Positions 8,416 to 27,922 of a DNA stretch of 64,000 nucleotides are shown piece after piece. A model generated the notes under the pieces. That model was not told where the DNA came from. It worked only from the letters and a program-made list of their open reading frames with translations, and made no database searches. Both the position numbers and the translations under genes were made by a program. How positions within the stretch are numbered: the first letter of the stretch is position 1; every line of letters starts with the position of its first letter. This DNA is from an uncultured bacterium (GTDB taxonomy: Bacteria > Edwardsbacteria > AC1 > EtOH8). The stretch spans positions 18,136 through 82,135 of the forward strand of contig CAWAAX010000006.1 in the NCBI GenBank assembly GCA_963780225.1, written 5' to 3'.

Positions 8416-8857
8416 CCACAAAAAGCACAAGGAACACATAAAATGACGGATAACGAAGTATTGCGACTATGTGATATTGTTAGGCAGACGGCCTTTGTTC
8501 TTCATACCTATTTACGGAACGGCCATTTGGAAAAGGTATATGAAAACGGATTAACCCATCGTCTTCGTAAGGCAGGAATAAAGGTCGAACAGCAGCACCC
8601 TTTAAAGGTTTTTGACGAAGATGGAACCATTCTGGGGGAGTACTTCGCAGACCTGTTAATAGAAACGGAACTTATCGTCGAACTTAAGGTCTGCAAGGCA
8701 ATAGCAGATGAGCACCTGTCCCAAGTATTCGGATATTTACGCGCCACAGGGCAGCGACATGGATTATTAATTAATTTTGGATCGCAACAAATTCAATTTA
8801 AGAAATTGGTTTTGTAGGTATGGCGTTAATTTTGCGATTTATGTGCTTCTTGTGGTT
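8416..8857. repeat. Matched inverted-repeat pair enclosing a GxxExxY gene
   Basis: The left arm ccacaaaaagcacaaggaacacataaa (8416-8442) ends 1 bp before the ATG. The right arm gatttatgtgcttcttgtggtt (8836-8857) lies 19 bp after the stop. Arm cores ccacaaRaagcaca...taaa are complementary. Confidence 0.6.
8443..8817 (+). CDS. GxxExxY family protein (PD-(D/E)XK-like small protein), paralog 1
   Basis: 'LEKVYENGL...GEYFADLLIETELIVELK...' matches the GxxExxY pattern. It is paralogous to the ORFs at 18126 and 27504. Confidence 0.8.
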   Translation: MTDNEVLRLCDIVRQTAFVLHTYLRNGHLEKVYENGLTHRLRKAGIKVEQQHPLKVFDEDGTILGEYFADLLIETELIVELKVCKAIADEHLSQVFGYLRATGQRHGLLINFGSQQIQFKKLVL

Positions 8858-8880
8858 GAATAAATATACCTTTTTACGAA

Positions 8881-8971: not shown

Positions 8972-10057
8972 ATGGCAGACACAGCGGCAGAAAAATCAAA
9001 AGCTTTGGACCTGGCTCTTTCTCAGATAGAAAAGCAGTTCGGCAAAGGTTCGATAATGAAACTGGGCTCCAATTCGGCGATAGTTCCGGTGGAGGTGATC
9101 CCCACCGGGTCCATCTCGCTGGATGCGGCCCTGGGAGTGGGCGGGGTGCCCCGGGGCAGGATCGTGGAGATATACGGACCGGAGGCCTCCGGCAAGACCA
9201 CCCTGGCCCTGTCCATAGTGGCCCAGGCCCAGAAGCTGGGCGGCACCGCCGCCTACATCGACGCCGAGCATGCCATGGACCCCAAGTACGCCAAGGCCCT
9301 GGGGGTGGATATAGACAATCTCCTGGTAGCCCAGCCCGACACCGGCGAGGAGGCCCTGGAGATCACCGAGACCCTGATCCGCTCCAACGCCATGGACGTG
9401 ATAGTCATTGACTCGGTGGCGGCCCTGGTGCCCAAGGCCGAGATCGAAGGCGACATGGGAGACAGCCACATGGGCCTGCAGGCCCGGCTGATGTCCCAGG
9501 CTTTGCGCAAGATCACGGCGGTGGCCAACCGCTCCAAGACATGCATCATCTTCATCAACCAGATCCGGATGAAGATCGGGGTGATGTTCGGCAACCCCGA
9601 GACCACCCCCGGCGGCCTGGCCCTCAAGTTCCACGCCTCGATACGGATGGACATCCGGCGGATCGAGGCCATCAAGCAGGGCGAGGTCAACATCGGCAAC
9701 CGGGTGCGGGTGAAGGTGCTTAAGAACAAGGTGGCCTCGCCCTTCCGCAACGCCGAGTTCGAGATCATCTTCGGCCAGGGCATCAGCTACATCGGCGACC
9801 TGCTGGACCTGGCGGTGGAGAACAACATCATTGAAAAGAGCGGCACCTGGTTCTCCTTCAAGGGCGAGCGGCTGGGGCAGGGCCGGGAGAACGTGCGCGA
9901 GATGCTGAAGACCAACGCCGACCTGCTGGCCGACCTGGACAAGGATGTCAAGGCCAAGCTGGGGATAGCCGCGGCCGCCAAGTCCGAGGGCCCCAAGGAG
10001 GCCCGGGAGCCGGCCAAGGAAGAGGAGAAGGAGAAGGGGAGAAAAGGCAGAAAATAA
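8972..10057 (+). CDS. recA: Recombinase RecA
   Basis: '[23 protein letters not shown]...[15 protein letters not shown]' is canonical RecA. Confidence 0.97.
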
Positions 10058-10162
10058 ATTCAGAAGGCAAAATAAAATAACTTGCAATAACTGAGATTAA
10101 CCGGATGGATGTGCTAATCATTTAACATGCAGAATGTAAATTCCAAATTGTAAATCTGTAAA

Positions 10163-11224
10163 TTGAAGAATTGCATCCAGTGTCTTTTGCCGGAGAGCGC
10201 ACCGGGCATCAGCTTTGATGATTCCGGGATCTGCAACTACTGCCGGACATACAAGAAGACCGAGCTTAACGGCGAGGAGGCCCTGTTAAGGATCCTTGAC
10301 CGCCAGCGCCGCCGGGGCGGAAAGTACCAGTGCCTGGTGCCATTGAGCGGCGGCCGTGACAGCACCTTTGCCCTGCTGAAGATGGTCCGAGATTACGGTC
10401 TGACTGCTTTGGCGGTGAATTATCAGAATCCTTTTACTTCACCCGAAGCTGCTGCGAATATTCGGCAGGCCACCGAAAAACTGGGGGTGGAACTGGTGAG
10501 CTTTGGTCTAAAGCCGGGTTTGCACCAAATGACACTCAAGAAGAACCTGGAGGCCTGGCTCAAAAGGCCGTCGGCGGCGCTGGTTCCGATAATCTGCAGC
10601 GCCTGCCACAACATGTGGCTGCCGATCATGCAGATCGCCAAGAAACACGATATCCATTGCATAGTCACCGGGCGCAACCCCTACGAGGAGGTCTCGTTCA
10701 AACGCCGCCTGCTGGGGGTCAGCCCCGACGAGGACATCAGGAATGTCTATCTAAAGAACCTCGGAGGAATAGTCAAGGAGGCGGCCAAGAACCTGTCCTA
10801 TTTCTCGCCCCAAACCCTGCCGGTGATGATCAAGGGGCATTTCTTCGGCAGTCCCTATGCTTTGGGAACCAGGATCTACGGCCGCGGCATCGAAATGGCT
10901 GACCTGTTCTTTTACCTGCCCTGGAACGAATCTGAAGTCATGTCCCGGATCCAAAACGAGTTGGGCTGGCAAAGCCCCAAAGAGCAGGGCAACACCTGGC
11001 GCTTCGACTGCAGGGTTTCGCACCTGCGGGATCTGATGTACCAGAAGACCATCGGGATGACCGAGCGCCAGGAGCTTTACGCCCGGCTGATCCGCGAGGG
11101 GTTGATATCCAAACAGGAAATTGGAAACCGGCTGCCGGTGGAGAATGCCATCCATTATGACAAGATTGAGGCCCTGTTGGACGAAGTGGGCATAAGGGAC
11201 AGGTCTTACCTAAGACAGGAGTGA
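10163..11224 (+). CDS. N-acetyl sugar amidotransferase (PP-loop ATPase, WbuX/TIGR03573-like), polysaccharide biosynthesis
   Basis: It has the N-terminal Cys cluster 'CIQCLLPESAPGISFDDSGICNYC' and the PP-loop 'SGGRDS'. The start codon is TTG. Confidence 0.6.
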   Translation: MKNCIQCLLPESAPGISFDDSGICNYCRTYKKTELNGEEALLRILDRQRRRGGKYQCLVPLSGGRDSTFALLKMVRDYGLTALAVNYQNPFTSPEAAANIRQATEKLGVELVSFGLKPGLHQMTLKKNLEAWLKRPSAALVPIICSACHNMWLPIMQIAKKHDIHCIVTGRNPYEEVSFKRRLLGVSPDEDIRNVYLKNLGGIVKEAAKNLSYFSPQTLPVMIKGHFFGSPYALGTRIYGRGIEMADLFFYLPWNESEVMSRIQNELGWQSPKEQGNTWRFDCRVSHLRDLMYQKTIGMTERQELYARLIREGLISKQEIGNRLPVENAIHYDKIEALLDEVGIRDRSYLRQE

Positions 11225-11253
11225 ACCAAATCTCTTATTTACCAAGGTTGTCC

Positions 11254-11314
11254 TTATCCACAGATTAACGCAGATTGTCACCAATTATATTCATAATCAA
11301 TCTGTGTAAATCTG
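11254..11314. promoter_or_regulatory. TTATCCACAGATTAACGCAGATTG (exact DnaA-box consensus TTATCCACA) with an inverted partner CAATCTGTGTAAATCTG
   Basis: The direct copy is at 11254-11277 and the inverted partner at 11298-11314. Both lie in the amidotransferase/MIF intergenic region. Confidence 0.45.
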
Positions 11315-11417
11315 AGAAATCGTTCGGCTAACGCTCACGACAGCGTCTGCGGATTAAAAAACCACGGGGCAATTTGTCTGGATGACTTCATATGAGAACC
11401 TGAACGGAGGCGCAAAC

Positions 11418-11813
11418 ATGCCCATCATCGAAATAAAAGCCCTGCCCCAGAAACCGGAGGTCAACATCTCCGATACGCTGAAGACCATCTGCGTGCGACT
11501 GGCCGACAAGATGGGGCTGCAGCCCAAGCAGGTCTGGGCCACTTGGACCACCATCGAGCCCGGCTGCTATCTGGAAGGCGAGGCCCAGGCTAGGGTCCAG
11601 CCCTACGGAACCCATCCGCCGCTGGTGAACATGCTGGCCTTTGAAGGCAAGAGCGAAAGCGAAATAGAAACGGCCATGCTGACCATCGCCGAGGAGCTGG
11701 CCAAGCGCCTGCAGATAGATCCCGAGAACATTTTCATCAAATACGACGAGACCAGGTCCGGCCGGGTCTTCACCGGGGGGACGACCATCATCAAGACCAA
11801 ACACGGTAAATGA
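11418..11813 (+). CDS. MIF/tautomerase-superfamily protein
   Basis: Starting at ATG 11418, preceded by a GGAGG RBS, gives the N-terminus 'MPIIEIK' (Pro1). 'LQIDPENIFIKYDETRSGRVFTGGTT' resembles the MIF C-terminal segment. Confidence 0.45.
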   Translation: MPIIEIKALPQKPEVNISDTLKTICVRLADKMGLQPKQVWATWTTIEPGCYLEGEAQARVQPYGTHPPLVNMLAFEGKSESEIETAMLTIAEELAKRLQIDPENIFIKYDETRSGRVFTGGTTIIKTKHGK

Positions 11814-11829
11814 GATGCCGGGGCTTTTC

Positions 11830-11916
11830 GCCACTAAGGCACAAAGACACAAAGGGTATTAAAAATAGTACCAAGCGCGATAAATAATTTTCTTGGAGCC
11901 TTGGTGTCTTTGTGGC
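11830..11916. repeat. Gene-less inverted-repeat hairpin of the CACRAAR family
   Basis: gccactaaggcacaaagacacaaagg (11830-11855) is complementary to ccttggtgtctttgtggc (11899-11916). It uses the same octamer units (aaagacac, taaggcac) as the arms flanking the GxxExxY gene at 27504. Confidence 0.6.
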
Positions 11917-11932
11917 TAGTAAAGGTCTTAAT

Positions 11933-12406
11933 ATGAAGATCATGAACGCCAAGGCCTACGCCCTGCGGTTGATAGAACTGAAGCCCCGCAGTGTTCATGA
12001 GATCAGGGACAAGCTGGCCAAGAAGGGCATAGACAAGGCCGAGATCGAAGCGGTTATCGCTGGTCTGGAATCCATCGGCCTTTTGAACGATGAGAAATTC
12101 GCCCGGGACTGGATCGAGAACCGCCAGCATTTTAGGCCCATGGGTGTGATACGCCTGCGGCAGGAGCTTTTTGCCAAGGGGATAGACCGGGAGATAGTGG
12201 ACCAGGCCATCTCTGATTACAAAAGCAATGCGGACGAGTTGCCGGCGGCCCTGGACCTGGCCCGGAGAAAGATGAGGCTTTTCAGCAAGCTTGACGCCGA
12301 GGCCGCCAAGCGCCGTCTGGCGGGATTTCTGGCCCGAAGGGGGTACGAGGTTTCGATAGTTTCCAAGGTGTTGAAGGAACTGCTGAAGGAAAATATTTTG
12401 GAATAA
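11933..12406 (+). CDS. recX: Recombination regulator RecX
   Basis: 'AYALRLIELKPRSVHEIRDKLAKKGI...' is a RecX helical-repeat protein. The ATG at 11933 follows an AAAGG RBS. Confidence 0.8.
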   Translation: MKIMNAKAYALRLIELKPRSVHEIRDKLAKKGIDKAEIEAVIAGLESIGLLNDEKFARDWIENRQHFRPMGVIRLRQELFAKGIDREIVDQAISDYKSNADELPAALDLARRKMRLFSKLDAEAAKRRLAGFLARRGYEVSIVSKVLKELLKENILE

Positions 12407-12411
12407 AAAAG

Positions 12412-12819
12412 ATGAAAAGAACGAAGCCCATAGATCTGATTAAAATTGCAGCATCTGTCACCAAGCGCAGGCAATTAGGCGAAAATTCCGCAGGCAGTGT
12501 TGGCTGCGCATTGCTTTCTGAAAAAGGCAATGTATATACGGGCGTCTGCATTGATACAAGCTCAAGCATGGGCTTTTGCGCCGAGCACAACGCCATCGGA
12601 AGTATGGTTACCGCAGGCGAATCAAGAATAAAAATGATAGTCGCCGTCGGGAAAAACGAAAAGGGAGAGGTTTGTGTTTTACATCCCTGCGGCAGGTGCC
12701 GCGAATTCATGCACCAAATCGACGAACGCAACATGGGAACCGATGTTGTTCTTGGTAAAAACAGAACCGTAAAACTTAAAGAACTATTGCCCTACAAAGA
12801 CGATTATAGCGTGGTATAA
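12412..12819 (+). CDS. cdd: Cytidine/deoxycytidylate deaminase family protein
   Basis: It has the zinc ligand motifs 'CAEHNAI' and 'PCGRCREF'. Confidence 0.7.
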   Translation: MKRTKPIDLIKIAASVTKRRQLGENSAGSVGCALLSEKGNVYTGVCIDTSSSMGFCAEHNAIGSMVTAGESRIKMIVAVGKNEKGEVCVLHPCGRCREFMHQIDERNMGTDVVLGKNRTVKLKELLPYKDDYSVV

Positions 12820-12823
12820 CTCT

Positions 12824-13567
12824 TTGTTCAATTTGGGGCGAGTATATCAAGGAAGTCAATTGAGAATGACAGGAACTGCCATCAACCTCTGGCTCAAGAA
12901 AATTACCACTGCGCGGGACGCCGACGCTGATTCTGTCGAGCGCTACACCCCTGGCGAGGAGATCACCAACGCCATCCTGCACGGGGTGGGGCTGGGCCTG
13001 GCCCTGGCGGCCCTGGCGGTGCTGGTGGTAATGGCCAGCCTGTCCGGGAACGCCTGGCACATCGTCAGCTTCAGCATCTACGGCGCCACCCTGGTACTGC
13101 TGTATTTGTCTTCAACGCTGTATCACAGCTTTTACGCCGGCAAGGCCAAGCGGTTGTTCCGGGTCTTCGACCACTCGTCCATCTTTCTGCTGATAGCCGG
13201 GACCTACACGCCCATCACCCTGATAGCCCTGCGGGGCCGGCTGGGCTGGACGGTGTTTGGAGTGGTGTGGGGCATCGCCGTGCTGGGCATAGTGGGCAAG
13301 GCCTTCTGGACGCACAAATTCGTGTTCATGTCCACCTTGCTGTACATTGCCATGGGCTGGCTGGTGGTGGTGGTGATAAAACCGGTGCTGGAGAACCTGA
13401 ATACGACCAGCCTGGTGTTCCTGGGGGTGGGAGGGCTGTTTTACACGCTGGGGACGGTGTTTTACCTGTGGAGAAAATTGAAATACCACCACGCGGTATG
13501 GCACCTGTTCGTGCTGGCCGGGAGCATCTGTCATTTTTTCACGGTGTTGTTCATGTTGCCGAGGTGA
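12824..13567 (+). CDS. Hemolysin III / PAQR family membrane protein
   Basis: 'EEITNAILHGVGLGLA...LYLSSTLYHSF...' with seven predicted TM helices. The real start may be the downstream ATG near 12866. Confidence 0.75.
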   Translation: MFNLGRVYQGSQLRMTGTAINLWLKKITTARDADADSVERYTPGEEITNAILHGVGLGLALAALAVLVVMASLSGNAWHIVSFSIYGATLVLLYLSSTLYHSFYAGKAKRLFRVFDHSSIFLLIAGTYTPITLIALRGRLGWTVFGVVWGIAVLGIVGKAFWTHKFVFMSTLLYIAMGWLVVVVIKPVLENLNTTSLVFLGVGGLFYTLGTVFYLWRKLKYHHAVWHLFVLAGSICHFFTVLFMLPR

Positions 13568-13634
13568 AATGGTATAACGTAACAGGGTGCTAATATCCGC
13601 ATGATTTGTAACTACTTTAACAAGAGATTTTACA

Positions 13635-14276
13635 ATGTCGCCTAAAAACAATATTAACCCAACGCCTGTAACAGTTGAGAATAAAATAGAATTGCCAAAA
13701 CAAAATAATGGTATGGCATTTTGGGCTTTGGGAATTTCAGTGATATCACTTATAATAAGTAGTCTTTCCACTTATTGGATTGCGTACCCAAATTACAGTT
13801 TGAAAATTATCGATGCCAATTTATGTTTTAATGTGAAGGCCCTGTATGATACAACTTATTTAGACTCAAATTATGTGGAGTGTAAATTTTATAATGATGG
13901 CAATAGAGCTGTAACAGTAAAAGATTTTCGCTTTTACCTATCCGATAAAAATGATTCCATGTTGTTCGTTTTTCAAGATGACGTTGTTTGCCCAAAACAA
14001 ATAGAACCTGGTGATTATGCCGAAAGTATAGTAAAACTGTCTTTCATAAGGGTATATAACCCACCACCACAGCAAATCACAAAGATGAAATATCGTTTAC
14101 CTTATAAAAATTACAGCAGTTGGAAAATGTTATCCGATTCATTTCGCATGGGCCAAGCAAGTTTACCCTTAAAACGGGAAATAGAATTTAATATTAAAAT
14201 ACATTATGCCGGGAATAAAGAGCTTAAGTATAAACGATCAATTTCATGTATTTGGCCAATTCCTATAGAAGATTAA
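13635..14276 (+). CDS. Hypothetical membrane-anchored protein in an AT-rich island
   Basis: It has one N-terminal TM helix, no recognisable domain, and local base composition far more AT-rich than its neighbours. Confidence 0.4.
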   Translation: MSPKNNINPTPVTVENKIELPKQNNGMAFWALGISVISLIISSLSTYWIAYPNYSLKIIDANLCFNVKALYDTTYLDSNYVECKFYNDGNRAVTVKDFRFYLSDKNDSMLFVFQDDVVCPKQIEPGDYAESIVKLSFIRVYNPPPQQITKMKYRLPYKNYSSWKMLSDSFRMGQASLPLKREIEFNIKIHYAGNKELKYKRSISCIWPIPIED

Positions 14277-14356
14277 TTGTAGTGGGTAAACTTAGCAAAT
14301 TAATTGAATCAATTAGGTATACAGGCATTAGAAAAATATAATATTTTGGATATCAC

Positions 14357-16498
14357 ATGCAATCATCCAACCAAATACGCCAATCGTTCCTGGATTTCTT
14401 CAAATCCAAAGGCCACACCATCGTGCCATCGGCCCCGGTGGTGCCCCAGGACGACCCGACCCTGCTGTTCACCAACGCCGGGATGAACCAGTTCAAGAAG
14501 ATCTTTCTGGGAGCCGAGACCCGCGATTACAAACGAGCGGCCGACAGCCAGAAGGTCCTGCGGGTTTCGGGCAAGCACAACGACCTGGAGGAGGTGGGCA
14601 AGGACCACACCCATCACACCTTTTTTGAGATGCTGGGCAACTGGTCATTCGGCGACTATTACAAGAAGGAAGCCATCGGCTGGGCCTGGGAGCTGCTGAC
14701 CGGGGTCTGGAAACTGCCCAAAGACAGGCTTTACGCCACGGTCTACGTCACCGACGAAGAATCCTTCGGCTTCTGGAAGACCCAGACCGGCATCGACCAT
14801 TCGCACATCAGCAAGCACGGCGACAAGGACAACTTCTGGGAGATGGGCGAGACCGGGCCCTGCGGCCCCTGTTCCGAGATCCACATGGACATGGGTGAAG
14901 GCACCTGCCCCAGGGCCGGCCGGGACGGGCATGTTTGCGGCGTCAATGTTGACGGCTGCGGGCGGTTCGTGGAGATCTGGAACCTGGTCTTCATACAGTA
15001 CGACCGGGGGGCGGACGGGACCCTGAAGGAACTGCCCAGCAAACACGTGGACACCGGGATGGGTTTCGAGCGGATCGTCCGGGTGCTGCAGAACAAAGAC
15101 TCCAACTATGCCGCCGATCTTTTTGCGCCCATCATCAAGCAGACCGGGGAGCTCTGCGGCCAACAGTATTCCATTGGCCCCGAGGGCATGTCATTCCGGG
15201 TGATCGCCGACCATATCCGGGCGCTGGTGTTCACCATCGGCGACGGGGTGCTGCCCTCCAACGAGGGCCGGGGATACGTGATCCGGCGCATCCTACGGCG
15301 GGCGGCCAGGCACGGGCGCCTGCTGGGGCTCAAACAGCCGTTCCTTCACCAGCTGGCCTCCACTGTGATCGACATCATGGGCGAAGCCTATCCCGACATC
15401 AAACAGCGCCACGAGCACATCGCCATGGTCATCAAGACCGAGGAGGAGCGGTTCGGCGAGACCCTGGACCAGGGGCTTTCGCTGTTCGACCAGATCGCAT
15501 CCAAGCTGAAAACGTCCCAGGGCACCGTCATCTCAGGCCCCGACGCCTTCAAACTCTACGACACTTTCGGCTTCCCGCTGGACCTGACCCAGGTGATGGC
15601 CGAAGAACAGGGCTTGACCGTGGATTCCGAGGGCTTCAAGCAGGCCATGACCGGACAGCGGGAACGGGCCCGGGCGGCCCGGGGCGAGGTTACTTTTACC
15701 GCGGCCAAGGAAGTGGACTATCCAAATTGTGTTTTCGTGGGCTATAACAGCCTGGTGCAGAAGACGAAGGTCAACGGGATATACATCAAGGAACTGCCTA
15801 TCGATAAGGCCGAGAAGGGCCAGACCGTGGACATCACGCTGGAGAACACTCCGTTCTACGGCGAGGGCGGCGGCCAGGCCGGGGATATAGGGTTCCTGGA
15901 GAATACCAGCTGCCGGATCAAGGTGCTGAACGCCGTCAAGGCCTTTAACGGCTCCACGGTTCATCATGCCGAGATCGTCTCCGGTTCCATAAAACTCAAG
16001 GACGAGGTCACCGCCTCGGTGAACCAGCCGGCCCGCCTGAGCACCGCCCGGCACCACACCGCCACCCATCTTCTGCAGGCGGCCTTGCAGCAGATCGTGG
16101 GCAAGCACGTACAGCAGCAGGGTTCCATGGTCAGTCCGGAGCGCCTGCGCTTCGACTTCACCCATTTCGCCGGACTGGACCGGATGCAGCTGGACGAGGT
16201 GGAGCATATGGTCAACCGTAAGATCATGGACAACCTTCCTGTGGCCGACGAGCACATGAAGCTGGCCGAGGCCCAGAAGACGGGCGCCATGGCCCTGTTC
16301 GGCGAGAAATACGGGGAGGAGGTTCGGGTGATCTCCTGCGGAGACTTCTCCAAAGAACTGTGCGGCGGCACCCACGTCAAGCACAGCGGTGAGCTGGGGC
16401 TGTTTAAGATCGTCAAAGAAGAAGCCATTGCCTCCGGGGTGCGCAGGATAGAGGCCGTGGCCGGGGAGACCAGCCTACCGTCTGGTCAAGCAGGATGA
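14357..16498 (+). CDS. alaS: Alanine--tRNA ligase, N-terminal 713 aa (catalytic, tRNA-binding and editing domains); truncated by a frameshift
   Basis: 'FLDFFKSKGHTIVPSAPVVPQDDPTLLFTNAGMNQFK' is the AlaRS N-terminus. It ends at a TGA at 16496-16498 after 'IEAVAGETSLPSGQAG'. Confidence 0.9.
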   Translation: MQSSNQIRQSFLDFFKSKGHTIVPSAPVVPQDDPTLLFTNAGMNQFKKIFLGAETRDYKRAADSQKVLRVSGKHNDLEEVGKDHTHHTFFEMLGNWSFGDYYKKEAIGWAWELLTGVWKLPKDRLYATVYVTDEESFGFWKTQTGIDHSHISKHGDKDNFWEMGETGPCGPCSEIHMDMGEGTCPRAGRDGHVCGVNVDGCGRFVEIWNLVFIQYDRGADGTLKELPSKHVDTGMGFERIVRVLQNKDSNYAADLFAPIIKQTGELCGQQYSIGPEGMSFRVIADHIRALVFTIGDGVLPSNEGRGYVIRRILRRAARHGRLLGLKQPFLHQLASTVIDIMGEAYPDIKQRHEHIAMVIKTEEERFGETLDQGLSLFDQIASKLKTSQGTVISGPDAFKLYDTFGFPLDLTQVMAEEQGLTVDSEGFKQAMTGQRERARAARGEVTFTAAKEVDYPNCVFVGYNSLVQKTKVNGIYIKELPIDKAEKGQTVDITLENTPFYGEGGGQAGDIGFLENTSCRIKVLNAVKAFNGSTVHHAEIVSGSIKLKDEVTASVNQPARLSTARHHTATHLLQAALQQIVGKHVQQQGSMVSPERLRFDFTHFAGLDRMQLDEVEHMVNRKIMDNLPVADEHMKLAEAQKTGAMALFGEKYGEEVRVISCGDFSKELCGGTHVKHSGELGLFKIVKEEAIASGVRRIEAVAGETSLPSGQAG

Positions 16499-16505
16499 AC
16501 TGCTG

Positions 16506-16994
16506 GTGGCGGAGATACAGGACCGGCTGAAGGCCAACCGCGATGACATAGTTAAGAAGCTGAACGCCCAGATGGAAGAGCTGAAGGCGTTGGAGAAGGC
16601 TAAAAAGGATGCGGCCAGACTTCAACAGGGGAGTCTGGTAGAGGGGATGGTTAAAGAAGTTAAAAAGGTTCAAGACGTCCAATTGTTGGTCAAATTGCTG
16701 GATGACTTTACCCAAGACGACATGCGGGAGATGGCCGACAAACTGCGGATCAAGCTGCCGGGTGCGGTCATCATCCTGTCCAGCGTGGACGAGGGCAAGT
16801 TCGGGTTCACCATCGCGGTGGGCGACGATCTGGTCAAAGCCAAGAAGTTCCTGGCCGGGGACATCGCCAAGAAGATCGCCGCGGCCACCGGCGGCAAGGG
16901 CGGCGGCCGTCCCCAGCTGGCCCAGGTGGGCGGCAAGGACGAGGGGAAGCTGAAGGAGCAGATGGGGATGATCGAGAATATCATCTTTTCATAG
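16506..16994 (+). CDS. alaS: Alanine--tRNA ligase C-terminal (DHHA1-like) region, in the +1 frame relative to the upstream part
   Basis: 'GGKGGGRPQLAQVGGKD' is the AlaRS C-terminal motif. This frame is open from 16452 and reads '...AYRLVKQDELLVAEIQDRL', which continues the AlaRS coiled-coil. Confidence 0.8.
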   Translation: MAEIQDRLKANRDDIVKKLNAQMEELKALEKAKKDAARLQQGSLVEGMVKEVKKVQDVQLLVKLLDDFTQDDMREMADKLRIKLPGAVIILSSVDEGKFGFTIAVGDDLVKAKKFLAGDIAKKIAAATGGKGGGRPQLAQVGGKDEGKLKEQMGMIENIIFS

Positions 16995-17036
16995 CCCAGC
17001 CCTTAAGGGCTGGGCTATGAACGGGAACAAATAATC

Positions 17037-17255
17037 ATGATCACAATTCACAAACAACTCTGCGGCCAGTGCGGCCTGTGCCCGGGCGTATGCCCGGTGC
17101 AGGCCCTGGTGCTCCATGCCTGGGGCCTGGAAGTTGACGATAAAAAATGCACCGGCTGCGGGCAGTGCGTTACAGTGTGCCCCACCGGGGCTCTGACCTC
17201 ACCCTCCGCCTCTGCTGATGCTACGGCGGACGGGCGCCCCTCTCATAACTCATAA
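17037..17255 (+). CDS. 2x[4Fe-4S] ferredoxin
   Basis: 'CGQCGLCPGVCP' and 'CTGCGQCVTVCP'. Confidence 0.8.
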   Translation: MITIHKQLCGQCGLCPGVCPVQALVLHAWGLEVDDKKCTGCGQCVTVCPTGALTSPSASADATADGRPSHNS

Positions 17256-17290
17256 GGTGAGGGAGTAGTGAACAGGTCAAAAGGAGGCAA

Positions 17291-18049
17291 ATGATCTACC
17301 AACAACTGCTGAAAACCGCCAAGCAAAAGGGCTCGAATTTCCTGGTCCTTTTGGACCCCGACAAGTGCAAAAAACAGGACGCGGCCAAGATCGGCCAGGC
17401 CTTGAACGACGCCGGGGCCGATGGCATCCTGTTCGGCACCAGCCTGCTGATGTCCAACCAGATCGACGACACCATCAAGGCCTTAAAGCAGAACTTCAAA
17501 CAGCCGGTGATCATATTCCCCGGCAGCGCCTACCAGGTCTCGCCGCACGCCGATGCCATCCTGTACCTGTCGCTGGTCTCGGGCCGCAATGCGGAACTAT
17601 TGATCGGTGAGCAGGTCAAGGCCGCGCCCATGCTGAAAGCCTCGGGCCTGGAGGTGATCCCCACCGGCTACATGTTGATCGAGTCCGGCAAGCTGACCTC
17701 GGCCAACTACATGAGTCACACCATGCCCATCCCCCGGGACAAGTCCGACATCGCCATGGCCCACGCCCTGGCCGCCCGGATGCTGGGGATGAAGCTGATC
17801 TACATGGACGCCGGCAGCGGCGCCCAGCAGAGCGTCCCAGAGGAGATGATCGCCGGGGTGGCCAAATATGCCGAGCTTCCCGTTGTGGTGGGAGGCGGCA
17901 TCAAAACGCCCGAGGACGCCGGGGCCAAGGCCCGGGCCGGGGCCGCCGCGGTGGTGGTGGGGAACATTTTGGAGAAGAAGGGCAACATCAAGACGGCGGC
18001 GGATTTCGCCAGGGCTATTCACTTCAGGGCGAAAACAAACCGGGGCTAA
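17291..18049 (+). CDS. Geranylgeranylglyceryl/heptaprenylglyceryl phosphate synthase family protein (PcrB/GGGPS)
   Basis: 'LVLLDPDK...ADGILFGTS...IIFPGS...LIYMDAGSGA...VVVGGGIKT' follows the GGGPS/PcrB TIM-barrel pattern. A GGAGG RBS precedes the ATG. Confidence 0.7.
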   Translation: MIYQQLLKTAKQKGSNFLVLLDPDKCKKQDAAKIGQALNDAGADGILFGTSLLMSNQIDDTIKALKQNFKQPVIIFPGSAYQVSPHADAILYLSLVSGRNAELLIGEQVKAAPMLKASGLEVIPTGYMLIESGKLTSANYMSHTMPIPRDKSDIAMAHALAARMLGMKLIYMDAGSGAQQSVPEEMIAGVAKYAELPVVVGGGIKTPEDAGAKARAGAAAVVVGNILEKKGNIKTAADFARAIHFRAKTNRG

Positions 18050-18545
18050 CCACGGAAACACGGAATTTATGAAAACACGGAAACATATAAAATGATTTGT
18101 TTGATTACGTTAGGTGTGTTTATATATGAGTATAGTAAGATCTGACCATTTGGAATTAGAAGAATTAACAGGGAATATTATTTCTTGCGGAATAGAAGTC
18201 CATAAAAAACTAGGTCCCGGATTTCTGGAATCGCTATATGAATCTGCTTTGCTGGTAGAACTTCAAAAAAGAGGCTTGCATACCACAAGTCAAAAGGAGA
18301 TCAGGGTATTTTATGACGGATTTGAAATTGGCGTACACCGGCTGGACATTGTCGTAGAGAATAAAGTTATTGTTGAACTTAAAGCGGTCGCTGAACTTGA
18401 CCAATGCCATAAAGCACAGTTGCTGTCATATCTCAAGGCTAGTCATTTAAAAATTGGGTTACTGTTAAATTTTTCTAAAAATATTCTCCAGGTGAAAAGG
18501 ATGGCATATTGATTCCCAGAATTCCTCATTCAGTGTTTCCGTGGT
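18048..18545. repeat. Matched inverted-repeat pair enclosing a GxxExxY gene
   Basis: The left arm aaccacggaaacacggaatttatgaaaacacggaaacatataaa (18048-18091) is complementary to the right arm cagtgtttccgtggt (18531-18545). The core is accacggaaacac. Confidence 0.6.
18126..18512 (+). CDS. GxxExxY family protein, paralog 2
   Basis: 'HKKLGPGFLESLYESAL...IVVENKVIVELKAV' is paralogous to 8443 and 27504. The ORF-track start at 18114 is GTG; the ATG at 18126 is the more likely start. Confidence 0.8.
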   Translation: MSIVRSDHLELEELTGNIISCGIEVHKKLGPGFLESLYESALLVELQKRGLHTTSQKEIRVFYDGFEIGVHRLDIVVENKVIVELKAVAELDQCHKAQLLSYLKASHLKIGLLLNFSKNILQVKRMAY

Positions 18546-18577
18546 AAAATAAATATAACTAAATATAGGAGTCAGCA

Positions 18578-19312
18578 ATGAAAGGCGTCATCTTAGCCGG
18601 CGGCCTGGGATCCAGGCTGCGCCCATTGACCAGCATCACCAACAAGCACCTGCTGCCGGTATACGACCGGCCCATGATCTACTATCCCATCCAGACCCTG
18701 GTGGAGGCGGGGGTACAGGACATCATGCTGGTGACCGGCGGAAACGCGGCCGGGGACTTCTTAAGACTGCTGGGTAATGGCGAGGAATTCGGGCTTAAGC
18801 ACATCAATTACACCTACCAGAAGCGCGAGGGCGGGATCGCCGAGGCCTTGGGCCTCTGCCGGCATTTCGTGGGCAAGGACAAGGTGGTGGTGATGCTGGG
18901 CGACAACATCCTGGACGGATCCATCAAAAAGGCGGTCAGCGACTTCGACAAGCAGGAATCGGGCGCCAAGATCTTTTTAAAGACCGTGGACAACCCAAGG
19001 GAATACGGGGTGGCCGAGCTGAAGGGCCCGCTGGTCAAGAACATCATAGAGAAGCCCAAGAACCCCAAGAGCAACTACGCCGTCATCGGCATCTACATGT
19101 ATGACGCCCAGGTCTGGAACATCCTGAAAACCCTGAAGCCCTCGGGCCGGGGAGAGCTGGAGATCACCGACGTCAACAATGCCTTCATCCAGAAAGGCCA
19201 CATGACCTACGAGATCATCAAGGGCTGGTGGGGCGACGCCGGGTCGTCCATCGAGGACCTGTGGCGGGTCAACCACTACATCGGACAGAAGGCGGAGCGG
19301 GCCAAGCGATGA
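18578..19312 (+). CDS. Sugar-phosphate nucleotidyltransferase (RmlA-like short form)
   Basis: 'KGVILAGGLGSRLRPLTSITNKHLLPVYDRPMIYY' is the NTP-transferase signature. Confidence 0.8.
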   Translation: MKGVILAGGLGSRLRPLTSITNKHLLPVYDRPMIYYPIQTLVEAGVQDIMLVTGGNAAGDFLRLLGNGEEFGLKHINYTYQKREGGIAEALGLCRHFVGKDKVVVMLGDNILDGSIKKAVSDFDKQESGAKIFLKTVDNPREYGVAELKGPLVKNIIEKPKNPKSNYAVIGIYMYDAQVWNILKTLKPSGRGELEITDVNNAFIQKGHMTYEIIKGWWGDAGSSIEDLWRVNHYIGQKAERAKR

Positions 19313-20154
19313 TCCTGGTCACCGGGGCCAAGGGGATGCTGGGCACCGACCTCTGCACCGAGCTCAGCGCCCAGCACCAGGTCACCGGAGTGGACCTGGG
19401 CGATTTTGACCTGTCGCACAAGGAGGCGGTGGAGGCCATCGCCGACCTTAACCCCCAACTGGTGGTGCACTGCGCGGCCATGACCAATGTGGACGGCTGC
19501 GAGACCGATCCCGACCGGGCCTATCTGGTCAACGGGCTGGGCACCAGGCACGCGGCTTTGGCCTGCCAAAAACTGGACATCCCTCTGCTGTACATCAGCA
19601 CCGACTTCGTGTTCGACGGGACCAAGCGTGAGCCTTATTACGAATGGGACAGCCCCAATCCCCTGGGACACTACGGCCGTTCCAAGCTGGCGGGGGAGAC
19701 GGAGGTAAGATCTCTCCTTAACAAGTATTACATCGTTCGCACTTCCTGGCTCTACGGTCCAAACGGCAAGAATTTTGTGGCCAGCATCCTCAAGAAGGCA
19801 CGGGAGACGGGCCAGGTCAAAGTGGTGGACGACCAGACCGGCTCGCCCACCTACACCCGCGATCTTTGCAATGCCCTGTCAATGCTGGTTCAGAGCAACC
19901 TGTACGGGGTCTATCACCTCAGCAACTCCGGGTCCTGCAGCTGGCATCAGTTCGCCAAAGCCGCCATGCAGCACGCCGGGGTCAAGGCCGATCTGCTTCC
20001 CATCAAATCGCATGAATATCCCACCCCCACCAAACGGCCGGCCTATTCGGTGTTGAACAATTTCGCCTGGAACAAGGAGTTTAAAACACCATTAAGGCAC
20101 TGGGAAGAGGGCTTAAAGGATTACATCCGTGAAACCATGCATGTGCAATGTTGA
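19309..20154 (+). CDS. rmlD: dTDP-4-dehydrorhamnose reductase
   Basis: 'MILVTGAKGMLGTDL...YISTDFVFDG...YGRSKLAGE'. It starts 4 bp before the upstream stop (ATGA overlap). Confidence 0.85.
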   Translation: MILVTGAKGMLGTDLCTELSAQHQVTGVDLGDFDLSHKEAVEAIADLNPQLVVHCAAMTNVDGCETDPDRAYLVNGLGTRHAALACQKLDIPLLYISTDFVFDGTKREPYYEWDSPNPLGHYGRSKLAGETEVRSLLNKYYIVRTSWLYGPNGKNFVASILKKARETGQVKVVDDQTGSPTYTRDLCNALSMLVQSNLYGVYHLSNSGSCSWHQFAKAAMQHAGVKADLLPIKSHEYPTPTKRPAYSVLNNFAWNKEFKTPLRHWEEGLKDYIRETMHVQC

Positions 20155-20270
20155 AAAATGAGGGCGGCCATTTGGTAGACATGAGCCACATGATTCTTCA
20201 TAACTGAAAGGTTAGAAAATCCTGTTAATCCTGTCAAAAAATATAACCTATAAGTTCATAAATCAACGAT

Positions 20271-20858
20271 ATGAAACAAAACAAAGAGATCCAGGCCGTA
20301 AAGGCCGAGCTTTATAAAAGCTCGTTCGCCCTGCAGCAGACCGCGGTTCTGCAGGCCGCCAACATCCACCAGGCGGCGGAGATGATCCACCGGACCTTAA
20401 AGACCGGGGGAAAACTTTTGATCTGCGGCAACGGGGGCAGCGCGGCCGACAGCCAGCATGTGGCCACCGAGCTGGTGGTGCGGTTCCAGAAGGAGCGAAA
20501 GGCCCTGGCCGCTTTGGCGTTGACCACCGACACCTCGCTTCTGACCGCCGAGGCCAACGACCACGGCTTCGACACCATCTTTTCCCGCCAGGTGGAGGCC
20601 TTGGGTAAAAAGGGGGACGTGCTGCTGGCCATCAGCACCAGCGGCAATTCGGCCAATGTGCTCAAGGCGGTGCAGTCCGCCAGAAAGCTGGGACTGGCAA
20701 CAATAGGCCTGTCCGGAGGAACCGGGGGGAAACTGAAGAAGGCCTGCCACCTGTGCCTGCTGGCCCCGGGCGGCGCCACCTGCCGGATCCAGGAATGCCA
20801 CCTGGCCATGGAGCATGTTATCTGCGACCTAGTGGAAGGCTGGCTGGGTAAAAAATAA
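20271..20858 (+). CDS. gmhA: D-sedoheptulose-7-phosphate isomerase (SIS domain)
   Basis: '[18 protein letters not shown]...[10 protein letters not shown]' aligns with GmhA. Confidence 0.85.
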
Positions 20859-27475: not shown

Positions 27476-27922
27476 GCCACAAAGACACTAAGGCACGAAA
27501 ATCATGAATTATCAACCGCTATCAACAGTAGAAGAAGAGCGGGCAAAGAAAATCGTAGATGCCGCATATGCAGTGCATAAAAAACTGGGTCCGGGGTTGC
27601 TGGAAAAAGTATACGAGGTATGTTTTTGGCATGAATTGTCTAAACGGGAATTAAGGTACCAAAGGCAAGTTGATGTACCGATTGTTTATGACGGTATAAC
27701 GTTTGATGAAGGACTATGTTTAGATGTCCTGGTGGAAAACAGCATCATCTGTGAATTGAAAGCCGTAGATGAGATGAATCCAGTCTGGGAAGCACAAATA
27801 CTGAGCCATTTAAAACTAACTGGCAAACGCCTTGGATTTCTCATCAATTTTAATCTGTCAGTTATCAAAAACGGTATTAAACGATTTATTGTATAAACTT
27901 GGTGACTTAGTGTCTTTGTGGC
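27476..27922. repeat. Matched inverted-repeat pair enclosing a GxxExxY gene
   Basis: The left arm gccacaaagacactaaggcacgaaaatc (27476-27503) abuts the ATG. The right arm cttggtgacttagtgtctttgtggc (27898-27922) lies 2 bp after the stop. The 17-bp core gccacaaagacactaag is perfectly complementary. Confidence 0.7.
27504..27896 (+). CDS. GxxExxY family protein, paralog 3
   Basis: 'HKKLGPGLLEKVYEVCF...LDVLVENSIICELKAV' matches the GxxExxY pattern. Confidence 0.8.
   Translation: MNYQPLSTVEEERAKKIVDAAYAVHKKLGPGLLEKVYEVCFWHELSKRELRYQRQVDVPIVYDGITFDEGLCLDVLVENSIICELKAVDEMNPVWEAQILSHLKLTGKRLGFLINFNLSVIKNGIKRFIV

What the first reader, a model, noticed from the sequence alone, without database searches (positions are those of the whole stretch)
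17037..18049. Archaeal-type ether-lipid enzyme homolog (GGGPS/PcrB family) with an upstream ferredoxin
The 252-aa protein has the GGGPS/PcrB TIM-barrel motifs. In bacteria, PcrB in Firmicutes makes heptaprenylglyceryl phosphate, whereas FCB-superphylum bacteria carry GGGPS homologs proposed to give mixed archaeal/bacterial membranes. The other lineage hints in this window (T9SS sorting domain) point to the FCB group, so this could be a true GGGPS. The co-oriented two-cluster ferredoxin 36 bp upstream may donate electrons to an associated reductase encoded elsewhere.
Basis: partly seen in the sequence, partly recalled or inferred. Interest (0 to 1): 0.5.

Follow-up and report, generated by a model that had tools for sequence, protein, structure and literature searches.

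The report
Bacterial archaeal-type ether-lipid synthase plus ferredoxin
An uncultured TA06/Edwardsbacteria bacterium encodes a genuine archaeal-type (group II) GGGP synthase directly behind a small ferredoxin of the kind that feeds electrons to geranylgeranyl reductase, which adds one more lineage to a phenomenon already described for FCB-group bacteria.

Summary
Both ORFs are real. The ferredoxin lies at 17037-17255 (72 aa, two 4Fe-4S motifs) and the PcrB/GGGPS-family protein at 17291-18049 (252 aa).

The synthase is a group II GGGPS, not a Firmicutes heptaprenyl-type PcrB. It scores 283 and 204 bits against the GGGPS models, above both cut-offs, and 29 bits against the HepGPS model. Its best solved relatives are the Flavobacterium and Methanothermobacter GGGPS (E about 1e-56 and 1e-54). 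The catalytic, Mg and phosphate-binding residues are present.

The nearest homologues carry the source labels candidate division TA06 and Ca. Edwardsbacteria.

The ferredoxin is not a random neighbour:
- It sits directly upstream of GGGPS in all 10 loci of this lineage.
- In Eisenbacteria-like and Poribacteria loci a homologous ferredoxin sits in fdx-GGR-GGGPS.
- Among 40 small stand-alone relatives from metagenomes, 28 have a geranylgeranyl reductase (GGR) directly downstream.

This matches the experimentally shown ferredoxin-GGR partnership in archaea. In the window lineage GGR is absent from the locus.

No GGR, DGGGPS or G1PDH is encoded in the 64 kb. Published tables list a DGGGPS orthologue elsewhere in a related Edwardsbacteria genome.

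This is a new member of a known kind, of modest interest.

The parts
17037..17255 (+). Small 2x[4Fe-4S] ferredoxin of 72 aa. The core is about 55 aa, followed by a non-conserved C-terminal tail. It belongs to the GGR-partner ferredoxin type.
   Evidence: Fer4 and dicluster Pfam hits. All 8 Cys are conserved in the lineage and in the GGR-linked homologues (alignment A2). Relatives are mostly followed by GGR.
17291..18049 (+). Group II (bacterial IIb-like) geranylgeranylglyceryl phosphate synthase, 252 aa.
   Evidence: NCBIfam NF003198 and TIGR01769 score above their cut-offs, while the HepGPS model scores far below its own. The best PDB relatives are 4JEJ and 4MM1. Residues conserved in alignment A1: D22, S51, V83, Y127, Y171, D173, S176-G177, G201-G203 and G224-N225.
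17281..17287 (+). Shine-Dalgarno-like AAGGAGG, 3 nt before the GGGPS start codon.
   Evidence: Read directly from the sequence.
16991..17018 (+). Perfect 12-bp hairpin (ATAGCCCAGCCC-TTAA-GGGCTGGGCTAT) overlapping the alaS stop codon, with no T-tract after it. It may mark a transcript boundary or a stabiliser between alaS and the fdx-GGGPS pair.
   Evidence: Read directly from the sequence. The terminator scan did not call it because it lacks a T tail. Its function is inferred only.
14357..16994 (+). alaS (alanine-tRNA ligase), the conserved upstream neighbour of GGGPS across FCB-type phyla. In this window it is split by a frameshift near 16470.
   Evidence: ORFs at 14357-16498 and 16506-16994. 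The second ORF carries the DHHA1 domain and matches the alaS C-terminus. Relatives have one gene of 856-887 aa, mostly 878-884. alaS is at position -1 in 35 loci.
18578..20858 (+). Conserved downstream context: an RmlA-like nucleotidyltransferase, an RmlD-like reductase and a SIS/GmhA-like isomerase. The same order follows GGGPS in the Eisenbacteria-like and Latescibacteria-like loci.
   Evidence: Pfam. Synteny in L042, L090, L091 and L092. The SIS gene is at position +1 in 28 loci.

Best explanation
The two genes are the remnant of an archaeal-type ether-lipid module in an uncultured TA06/Edwardsbacteria-lineage bacterium.

The 252-aa protein is a group II GGGPS. By homology it is a soluble TIM-barrel prenyltransferase that ionises geranylgeranyl diphosphate on a Mg2+ held by Asp22. 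It transfers the C20 chain to the C3 hydroxyl of sn-glycerol-1-phosphate, making the first ether bond (GGGP). It probably works as a hexamer, because Tyr140 occupies the 'aromatic anchor' position.

The 72-aa protein is a two-cluster ferredoxin of the kind that hands low-potential electrons to geranylgeranyl reductase (GGR), the flavoenzyme that saturates the isoprenoid chains.

In related arrangements the order is alaS-fdx-GGR-GGGPS. In this lineage GGR is no longer at the locus, leaving fdx directly in front of GGGPS. The two are probably co-transcribed, given the 35-nt spacer, the strong SD and the absence of a terminator between them.

Shown here: family membership of both proteins, residue conservation, lineage-wide conservation of the pair, and the statistical association of this ferredoxin type with GGR.

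Inferred: the C20 and G1P specificity, the hexameric state, co-transcription, that a GGR and a DGGGPS elsewhere in the genome complete the pathway, and that any ether lipid is made.
For: GGGPS identity:
- Model scores and PDB relatives support group II GGGPS.
- An NJ tree places the lineage inside the bacterial group II radiation, which also contains the biochemically characterised F. johnsoniae enzyme.
- Residues named in PMC9385802 were mapped through the alignment. The Mg ligand is D22. The limiter position V83 equals Mt V86 and Fj I90. Y127 and Y171 are present, as are the phosphate-binding S176-G177, G201-G203 and V223-G224-N225.

Ferredoxin:
- It lies 16-66 bp upstream of GGGPS in 10 of 10 loci of the lineage, where GGGPS identity ranges from 67 to 100%.
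- It is directly upstream of GGGPS in 0 of 80 other FCB-type loci. The only four other loci with a homologous small ferredoxin (L042, L077, L082, L088) have it immediately upstream of a GGR that is itself immediately upstream of GGGPS.
- L091 and L092 show alaS-fdx-GGR-GGGPS followed by the same downstream genes as the window.
- In a metagenome scan with the ferredoxin alignment, 28 of 40 small stand-alone relatives have GGR directly downstream. The association is strongest among the most similar hits: 28 of the top 40 ranks against 9 of ranks 41-80.
- Several of these loci are archaeal.

Experimental precedent:
- T. kodakarensis Fd-2 is encoded immediately upstream of GGR, is co-transcribed with it and interacts with it specifically (PMC6401487).
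- M. acetivorans GGR needs the ferredoxin of its own locus (PMC10821996).

Pathway context:
- Coleman et al. list both a GGGPS (OGF04519.1) and a DGGGPS orthologue (OGF01449.1) for Ca. Edwardsbacteria RifOxyC12_full_54_24. OGF04519.1 is in the same 90% cluster as P0006, which is 67% identical to the window protein.
Against: - No GGR, UbiA/DGGGPS or G1PDH is encoded in the 64-kb window or in the flanks of eight related loci.
- A search with an Eisenbacteria GGR returned no hit attributable to this lineage. The ferredoxin's presumed partner is therefore unproven for this genome.
- The fdx-GGGPS adjacency lies within a block that is syntenic across the whole lineage, so adjacency alone does not prove coupling.
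- In one lineage member (L093) a restriction-modification cassette separates the two genes.
- The catalytic Glu of characterised GGGPS is Asp173 here. This is conservative, and D and E alternate among FCB homologues, but it is untested.
- Small ferredoxins are sequence-promiscuous. Identity to the GGR-linked ones is only 21-37% over the full length in alignment A2, or 45-47% over the 53-aa core.
Confidence: 0.65

Rival explanations
1. The protein is a Firmicutes-type PcrB (group Ib) that makes heptaprenylglyceryl phosphate rather than GGGP.
For: It belongs to the same Pfam family, PF01884. Chain-length limiters in group II enzymes are less sharply defined than in group I (PMC9385802).
Against: The HepGPS equivalog NF003197 scores 29.4 bits against a cut-off of 260, while the group II GGGPS models pass their cut-offs. 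PcrB structures match only at E 8.6e-6 to 4.5e-4, against 1e-56 for FjGGGPS. The limiter position carries Val, as in MtGGGPS.
Confidence: 0.03
2. The ferredoxin is now a general-purpose or differently partnered electron carrier. Its position next to GGGPS would then be a historical relic of a lost fdx-GGR-GGGPS operon, and the lineage has no GGR.
For: GGR is absent from the locus in every lineage member examined and from 64 kb of this genome. No GGR attributable to the lineage was found. An RM cassette can separate fdx from GGGPS without loss of either gene. A Latescibacteria-like locus has GGR-GGGPS without the ferredoxin, so the pairing is not obligatory.
Against: The ferredoxin keeps all eight Cys and 64-72% identity across the lineage, which argues for continuing selection. 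Its closest relatives outside the lineage are overwhelmingly GGR-linked. The GGR search was limited to the 120 best hits, so it is weak evidence of absence.
Confidence: 0.25
3. The GGGPS product is not a bulk membrane lipid. It might be a minor prenyl-glycerol compound, such as an anchor for a glycoconjugate, or the enzyme might act in catabolism of archaeal lipids.
For: GGGPS is embedded in a conserved block with sugar-nucleotide genes: an RmlA-like transferase, an RmlD-like reductase, a SIS/GmhA-like isomerase, a GHMP kinase, and in L091/L092 a UbiA of the decaprenyl-phosphate phosphoribosyltransferase type. Edwardsbacteria is not in the G1PDH list of Coleman et al., and those authors raise catabolism as a possibility for FCB lineages lacking G1PDH. 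The physiological role of the B. subtilis PcrB product is, from my own knowledge, also unclear.
Against: Cloacimonetes GGGPS plus DGGGPS make archaeol-type phospholipid in E. coli (PMC7852524). The recurrent fdx-GGR-GGGPS arrangement points to saturated isoprenoid ethers. The recA-recX-alaS-GGGPS-SIS order may simply be ancestral synteny.
Confidence: 0.15

Closest known systems
Flavobacterium johnsoniae GGGPS (PDB 4JEJ), bacterial group IIb
   Same: It is the best solved relative: E 1.4e-56, aligned over residues 2-230. It shares the Mg-binding Asp, the Tyr/Tyr/acid triad, the phosphate-binding loops and an aliphatic limiter (I90 against V83). Bacteroidetes homologues have in vitro GGGPS activity with G1P (PMC7852524).
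   Different: Identity is about 46%. FjGGGPS has a charged residue at the aromatic-anchor position and is a dimer (PMC7888582). The window protein has Tyr140 there, so a hexamer is predicted. The window protein has Asp173 where Fj has Glu.
Ca. Cloacimonetes GGGPS/DGGGPS (Villanueva et al. 2021, PMC7852524)
   Same: It is an FCB-type bacterial group II GGGPS, about 52% identical to the Cloacimonadota homologue in L055. That work is the published framework of bacteria with archaeal ether-lipid genes but no recognisable G1PDH.
   Different: In Cloacimonadota loci a polyprenyl synthase and a UbiA (DGGGPS) lie directly upstream of GGGPS. Here the upstream gene is a ferredoxin, and no UbiA or polyprenyl synthase was found among the window ORFs scanned.
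Thermococcus kodakarensis Fd-2 (TK1087) with GGR (TK1088), and the Methanosarcina acetivorans GGR with its locus ferredoxin
   Same: In both, a small ferredoxin encoded next to GGR acts as its specific electron donor (PMC6401487; PMC10821996). In T. kodakarensis the ferredoxin gene lies immediately upstream of GGR. The window ferredoxin's nearest relatives show exactly this gene order, and some of those loci are archaeal.
   Different: In the window the gene downstream of the ferredoxin is GGGPS, not GGR.
Bacillus subtilis PcrB (heptaprenylglyceryl phosphate synthase, group Ib)
   Same: Same Pfam family and TIM-barrel fold, and G1P is the acceptor (PMC9385802).
   Different: The relationship is very distant: 23-29 bits in the PDB search, and the HepGPS model is failed. 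The group I limiter architecture on helix alpha4a does not apply.
Eisenbacteria-like loci L042, L091 and L092
   Same: The gene order is the same: recA-recX-alaS-fdx-...-GGGPS-NTP transferase-RmlD-like-SIS.
   Different: They carry a roughly 390-aa GGR between fdx and GGGPS. Their ferredoxin has a Cx3CxxCx3C first motif. GGGPS identity to the window protein is only 44-51%.

Membership tests
Group II GGGPS (phosphoglycerol geranylgeranyltransferase) | Scores above the curated cut-offs of the family models | tested here: met
   NF003198 scores 282.7 against a cut-off of 247. TIGR01769 scores 204.1 against 161.55. TIGR01768 scores 177.5 against 113.25.
Group II GGGPS (phosphoglycerol geranylgeranyltransferase) | Closest to group II rather than group I or PcrB structures and sequences | tested here: met
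   4JEJ scores 195 bits and 4MM1 186 bits, against 23-29 bits for the HepGPS/PcrB structures (e.g. 4NAF, 3VZX). The group I models TIGR04146 and TIGR04147 score 39 and 25 bits. The NJ tree nests the protein within bacterial group II.
Group II GGGPS (phosphoglycerol geranylgeranyltransferase) | Mg2+/diphosphate-binding Asp, the Tyr/Tyr/Glu triad for G1P, and the standard phosphate-binding loops | tested here: met
   D22, Y127, Y171, S176-G177, G201-G203 and V223-G224-N225 are present. The triad acid is Asp173 rather than Glu. This is a conservative change, and D and E alternate among FCB homologues.
Group II GGGPS (phosphoglycerol geranylgeranyltransferase) | C20 specificity (limiter residue) and preference for G1P over G3P | not testable with these tools
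   Val83 aligns with the proposed limiters Mt V86 and Fj I90. That is only suggestive, and enzyme assays are needed.
Firmicutes-type PcrB / heptaprenylglyceryl phosphate synthase | Scores above the HepGPS equivalog cut-off | tested here: not met
   NF003197 scores 29.4 bits against a cut-off of 260.
2x[4Fe-4S] (clostridial-type) ferredoxin | Two CxxCxxCxxxCP motifs in a protein of about 55-75 aa | tested here: met
   C9/C12/C15/C19-P20 and C38/C41/C44/C48-P49 are present. Fer4 scores 53.6 bits, and Fer4_10, Fer4_7 and Fer4_9 pass their cut-offs.
GGR-partner ferredoxin (as T. kodakarensis Fd-2) | Encoded next to, and co-transcribed with, geranylgeranyl reductase | tested here: not met
   In the window and in all 10 lineage loci the downstream gene is GGGPS, and there is no GGR within reach. 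The feature is met by the ferredoxin's homologues: 28 of 40 small relatives, plus L042, L077, L082, L088, L091 and L092. The claim is therefore 'same family and likely same job', not 'same operon'.
GGR-partner ferredoxin (as T. kodakarensis Fd-2) | Donates electrons specifically to GGR | not testable with these tools
   This requires protein interaction or reconstitution experiments.
Complete archaeal-type diether pathway (as proposed for FCB bacteria) | DGGGPS-clade UbiA in the same genome | not tested
   There is none in the window. Coleman et al. Table S5 lists OGF01449.1 as a DGGGPS orthologue in a related Edwardsbacteria genome.
Complete archaeal-type diether pathway (as proposed for FCB bacteria) | GGR in the same genome | tested here: inconclusive
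   There is none in the window or the lineage loci.
Complete archaeal-type diether pathway (as proposed for FCB bacteria) | G1P dehydrogenase (EgsA/AraM) | tested here: inconclusive
   There is none among the window ORFs scanned. Edwardsbacteria is absent from Coleman's G1PDH list, whereas one TA06 genome is listed.

The most novel reading that the evidence does not exclude
An alaS-fdx-GGR-GGGPS module, with the archaeal-style ferredoxin-GGR redox pair, may be ancestral to several FCB-related candidate phyla: Eisenbacteria-like lineages, Poribacteria and TA06/Edwardsbacteria. These bacteria would then make saturated archaeol-type ether lipids. The TA06/Edwardsbacteria lineage would be a natural variant that kept the dedicated ferredoxin next to GGGPS while relocating or replacing the reductase. 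The evidence here does not exclude this reading.
Probability: 0.25. Interest if true: 0.55.

Novelty: new member of a known kind. Interest (0 to 1): 0.3.

Why it matters
GGGPS in FCB-type bacteria is central to the debate on the 'lipid divide' and on mixed archaeal/bacterial membranes. This locus adds no new principle, because GGGPS in Edwardsbacteria is already listed in published surveys.

The comparative work does add one useful detail. A ferredoxin of the archaeal GGR-partner type travels with GGGPS, and usually with GGR, in several bacterial candidate phyla. That suggests these bacteria inherited the chain-saturation redox pair as well as the ether-bond enzymes.

It also gives a concrete three-gene set (fdx, GGR, GGGPS) to add to E. 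coli reconstitution experiments. Such experiments would test whether bacterial lineages can make fully saturated archaeal-type lipids.

Tried and rejected
- The exact-sequence look-up of the window GGGPS (P0001) found no contig on record. The rest of this genome could therefore not be read or walked.
It was still useful as a cross-phylum sample.
- A search with the Eisenbacteria GGR was meant to find a GGR of the TA06/Edwardsbacteria lineage by organism name or by matching contig lengths. Nothing was attributable to the lineage. The follow-up cluster look-up of ten NCBI-sourced GGR hits returned no organism names.
- A search with the UbiA encoded near GGGPS in L091 showed that this UbiA belongs to the family NCBI names decaprenyl-phosphate phosphoribosyltransferase. 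I therefore do not count it as evidence for DGGGPS. No hit from the window's lineage appeared.
- The Isobe et al. 2014 paper on M. acetivorans GGR and ferredoxin is not held. I cite it only through papers that describe it.
- The promoter and terminator scan gave nothing above shuffle expectation on the + strand.
- I considered that the 478-aa GGR of L090 might be a ferredoxin-GGR fusion. Its N-terminal extension has no Cys motif, so I rejected this. Fusion-length ORFs do occur in L104 and L142.
- I did not run structure prediction, because the sequence match to solved GGGPS structures is already decisive.
Full report
**Observation.** The window carries two co-oriented ORFs at the reported coordinates: 17037-17255 (72 aa) and 17291-18049 (252 aa), 35 nt apart. 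The first has two CxxCxxCxxxCP motifs and matches the 4Fe-4S ferredoxin models (Fer4 53.6 bits, several dicluster models above cut-off). The second matches Pfam PcrB at 147 bits. An AAGGAGG sequence sits 3 nt before its ATG. A perfect 12-bp hairpin (16991-17018) overlaps the stop codon of the upstream alaS gene. No terminator-like site lies between the ferredoxin and the synthase on the + strand.

**GGGPS or PcrB?** The curated NCBIfam models separate the subfamilies.
- The protein passes NF003198 (282.7 bits, cut-off 247), the TIGR01769 'GGGP' equivalog (204.1, cut-off 161.55) and TIGR01768.
- It scores 29.4 bits against the heptaprenylglyceryl-phosphate synthase equivalog NF003197 (cut-off 260).
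- It scores 39 and 25 bits against the group I archaeal models.
- Against solved structures, the best matches are F. johnsoniae GGGPS 4JEJ (1.4e-56, residues 2-230) and M. thermautotrophicus GGGPS 4MM1 (7e-54). PcrB/HepGPS structures appear only at 8.6e-6 to 4.5e-4.

I mapped the residues listed in a review of the enzymology (PMC9385802) through the alignment.
- The Mg/diphosphate ligand is Asp22, and Ser51 is present.
- The proposed group II chain-length limiter is Val83. It is identical to Mt V86 and aligned with Fj I90.
- The G1P-positioning Tyr127 and Tyr171 are present.
- The phosphate-binding loops are S176-G177, G201-G203 and V223-G224-N225.
- The catalytic acid is Asp173 instead of Glu. 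D and E alternate at this column among FCB homologues (alignment A1).
- Tyr140 aligns with the aromatic anchor Trp141 of MtGGGPS, the hallmark of hexameric group II enzymes. The dimeric Flavobacteriales enzymes have a charged residue there (PMC7888582).

The protein is a group II GGGPS. C20/G1P specificity and the hexameric state are inferences.

**Whose genome?** The 252-aa protein has an identical database entry from a 212,602-bp contig.
- Members of its 90% cluster are labelled candidate division TA06 (MBI4727201.1, MBI5805300.1).
- Relatives at 67% identity are labelled Ca. Edwardsbacteria (OGF04519.1 and others).
- NCBI files both under 'Bacteria candidate phyla'.
- The window is bacterial and diderm-like, with housekeeping genes throughout: recA, recX, tsaD, efp, ftsK, mutL, miaA, purD, priA, LolA and LptE. 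It also has a T9SS sorting domain.
- An NJ tree of GGGPS from about 90 loci places the lineage as a monophyletic clade inside the FCB-type radiation. That radiation also contains FjGGGPS.

**Is the ferredoxin a meaningful neighbour?** Three lines of evidence bear on this.

First, within the lineage, a small two-cluster ferredoxin lies 16-66 bp upstream of GGGPS in all ten loci (the window plus L001-L009). This includes one locus where the gene caller had missed it. The whole region is syntenic in these genomes, however, so this alone proves little.

Second, across phyla, a genome scan with a GGGPS alignment returned 80 loci from Zixibacteria, Ignavibacteria, Bacteroidota, Latescibacteria, Cloacimonadota, Poribacteria, Marinimicrobia and others.
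- None has a ferredoxin directly upstream of GGGPS.
- The recurrent neighbours are alaS at position -1 (35 loci), recX and recA further upstream, and a SIS/GmhA-like gene at +1 (28 loci). recA-recX-alaS-GGGPS-SIS is therefore a widely conserved order.
- In Cloacimonadota a polyprenyl synthase and a UbiA precede GGGPS, which fits the DGGGPS that Villanueva et al. characterised from Cloacimonetes.
- Only four of the 80 loci contain a homologue of the window ferredoxin. In all four it lies immediately upstream of a geranylgeranyl reductase (GGR_cat domain), which lies immediately upstream of GGGPS. These are L042 (Eisenbacteria: alaS-fdx-GGR-GGGPS) and three Poribacteria loci (UbiA-UbiA-SpoU-fdx-GGR-GGGPS).
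- Conversely, every GGR found in the 80 loci has this ferredoxin in front of it.
- Looking up GGR homologues gave two more genomes, L091 and L092. Their order is recA-recX-alaS-fdx-GGR-GGGPS-NTP transferase-RmlD-like-SIS. That is the window's order plus GGR.
- The same look-ups gave a Latescibacteria-like locus with GGR-GGGPS but no ferredoxin.

Third, I started from the ferredoxin itself. A metagenome scan with the ferredoxin alignment returned 80 loci.
- Among the 40 loci where the relative is a small stand-alone ORF with at least 700 bp of downstream sequence, 28 have a GGR directly downstream on the same strand.
- Four more loci also have GGR directly downstream, but there the ferredoxin match lies in a longer stop-to-stop ORF. 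Two of these (L104, L142) are fusion-length.
- The association is concentrated among the most similar hits: 28 of the top 40 ranks against 9 of ranks 41-80.
- Several of these loci are archaeal, with archaeal-type TIM, RqcH and SecY. At least one is bacterial.

This matches experimental knowledge. In T. kodakarensis, Fd-2 (TK1087) is encoded immediately upstream of GGR (TK1088), is co-transcribed with it and is its specific electron donor (PMC6401487). M. acetivorans GGR needs the ferredoxin of its own locus (PMC10821996; the title of Isobe et al. 2014 is cited). I conclude that the window ferredoxin belongs to the GGR-partner type.

**What is missing.** In the window lineage GGR is not at the locus.
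- tblastn with four GGRs and three UbiAs finds nothing in the 64-kb window or in eight related loci.
- Pfam scans of the substantial + strand ORFs of the window show no UbiA, GGR or G1PDH.
- I could not read the rest of the genome.
- A GGR homologue search gave no hit attributable to the lineage, but that is weak evidence of absence.
- Published data help for DGGGPS. Table S5 of Coleman et al. lists, for Ca. Edwardsbacteria RifOxyC12_full_54_24, the GGGPS OGF04519.1 and a DGGGPS orthologue OGF01449.1. OGF04519.1 is in the same 90% cluster as my P0006. That genome is not in their G1PDH sheet.

**Most likely mechanism.** GGGPS makes GGGP from GGPP and G1P. The ferredoxin supplies electrons to a GGR encoded elsewhere, which saturates the prenyl chains. 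A DGGGPS-type UbiA elsewhere adds the second chain.
- The simplest history is loss or relocation of GGR from an alaS-fdx-GGR-GGGPS arrangement. The Eisenbacteria-like loci share the flanks on both sides.
- The main rival is that GGR was lost altogether and the ferredoxin now serves another partner.
- That the ferredoxin keeps all eight Cys and 64-72% identity across the lineage argues that it still has a function.
- In one lineage contig (L093) a methyltransferase/endonuclease-like cassette separates it from GGGPS. Tight coupling is therefore not essential.

**Comparison with the known and novelty.**
- Group II GGGPS in Bacteroidetes is biochemically characterised.
- GGGPS plus DGGGPS in Cloacimonetes yield archaeol-type lipid in E. 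coli. Their presence across the FCB superphylum and related candidate phyla is published (PMC7852524; PMC6431249). An Edwardsbacteria GGGPS is already in those data sets.
- The ferredoxin-GGR pair is known from archaea.
- What I did not find described is the recurrence of fdx-GGR-GGGPS in bacterial candidate phyla, and the fdx-GGGPS remnant in TA06/Edwardsbacteria. Villanueva et al. mention ferredoxin only in a reference.
- This is an incremental point, so I rate the finding a new member of a known kind, with interest 0.3.

Noticed in passing
window 14357-16994, break near 16470: alaS is split into two ORFs of 713 aa and 162 aa. Reading 'GAG ACC A GCC TAC CGT' one base further on restores the expected sequence (...AYRLVKQDELLVAEIQDRLKANR...), and relatives have one gene of 856-887 aa. 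This is probably a single-base indel error in the assembly, or less likely a pseudogene of an essential gene.
   Followed up: partly
L077 8717-9907, L082 8786-9976, L088 8735-9925 (TGA in L088 at 8867-8869): In three Poribacteria genomes the GGR between the ferredoxin and GGGPS has an in-frame TGA at the position of the conserved Cys ('PVR*AEGI' against 'RIVCAEGV' in L042). A 7-bp hairpin lies 15 nt downstream. This is a candidate selenocysteine-containing geranylgeranyl reductase. The fold is not better than shuffles (z -0.87).
   Followed up: partly
L010-L092 and window 8972-20858: The gene order recA-recX-alaS-GGGPS-SIS(GmhA-like) is conserved across many FCB-type phyla. alaS is directly upstream of GGGPS in 35 loci and SIS directly downstream in 28. 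RmlA-like and RmlD-like genes are inserted in some lineages. It is unclear whether this is only ancestral synteny or a functional link to sugar-nucleotide metabolism.
   Followed up: partly
window 8443-8817, 18114-18512, 27504-27896: There are three paralogous small PD-(D/E)XK (PDDEXK_3 / GxxExxY) genes scattered between housekeeping genes. One lies directly downstream of GGGPS. The same slot holds a PDDEXK_3 gene in L006 and L007, but a different 172-aa ORF in L001. They look like mobile or frequently exchanged inserts.
   Followed up: no
L093 3814-5570: In one contig of the same lineage, a DNA-methyltransferase-like gene (326 aa, DPPY motif) and a 257-aa gene are inserted between the ferredoxin and GGGPS. 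This is probably a restriction-modification cassette.
   Followed up: no
L104 (482-codon ORF), L142 (476-codon ORF): In these metagenome contigs the ferredoxin match and the GGR lie in one long stop-to-stop reading frame. This suggests natural ferredoxin-GGR fusions.
   Followed up: no
L091 11535-12428, L092 10925-11797: The UbiA-family gene a few genes downstream of GGGPS in these loci belongs to the family NCBI names decaprenyl-phosphate phosphoribosyltransferase. It sits beside GHMP-kinase and PRPP-synthase-like genes, so it should not be read as a DGGGPS.
   Followed up: partly
window 43117-52753: Two adjacent giant signalling proteins. One is 1620 aa, with HAMP, about eight PAS domains and an HD-type domain. 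The other is 1593 aa, with seven GAF domains and a GGDEF domain. Together they look like a c-di-GMP turnover pair.
   Followed up: no
window 29652-30377: A 2-phosphosulfolactate phosphatase (ComB family) homologue, 249 bits. The family is known from coenzyme M biosynthesis in methanogens, and here it sits in a bacterial housekeeping context.
   Followed up: no
window 16991-17018: A perfect 12-bp stem with a 4-nt loop overlaps the alaS stop codon and has no T-tract after it. It may separate the alaS and fdx-GGGPS transcripts or stabilise the mRNA.
   Followed up: no
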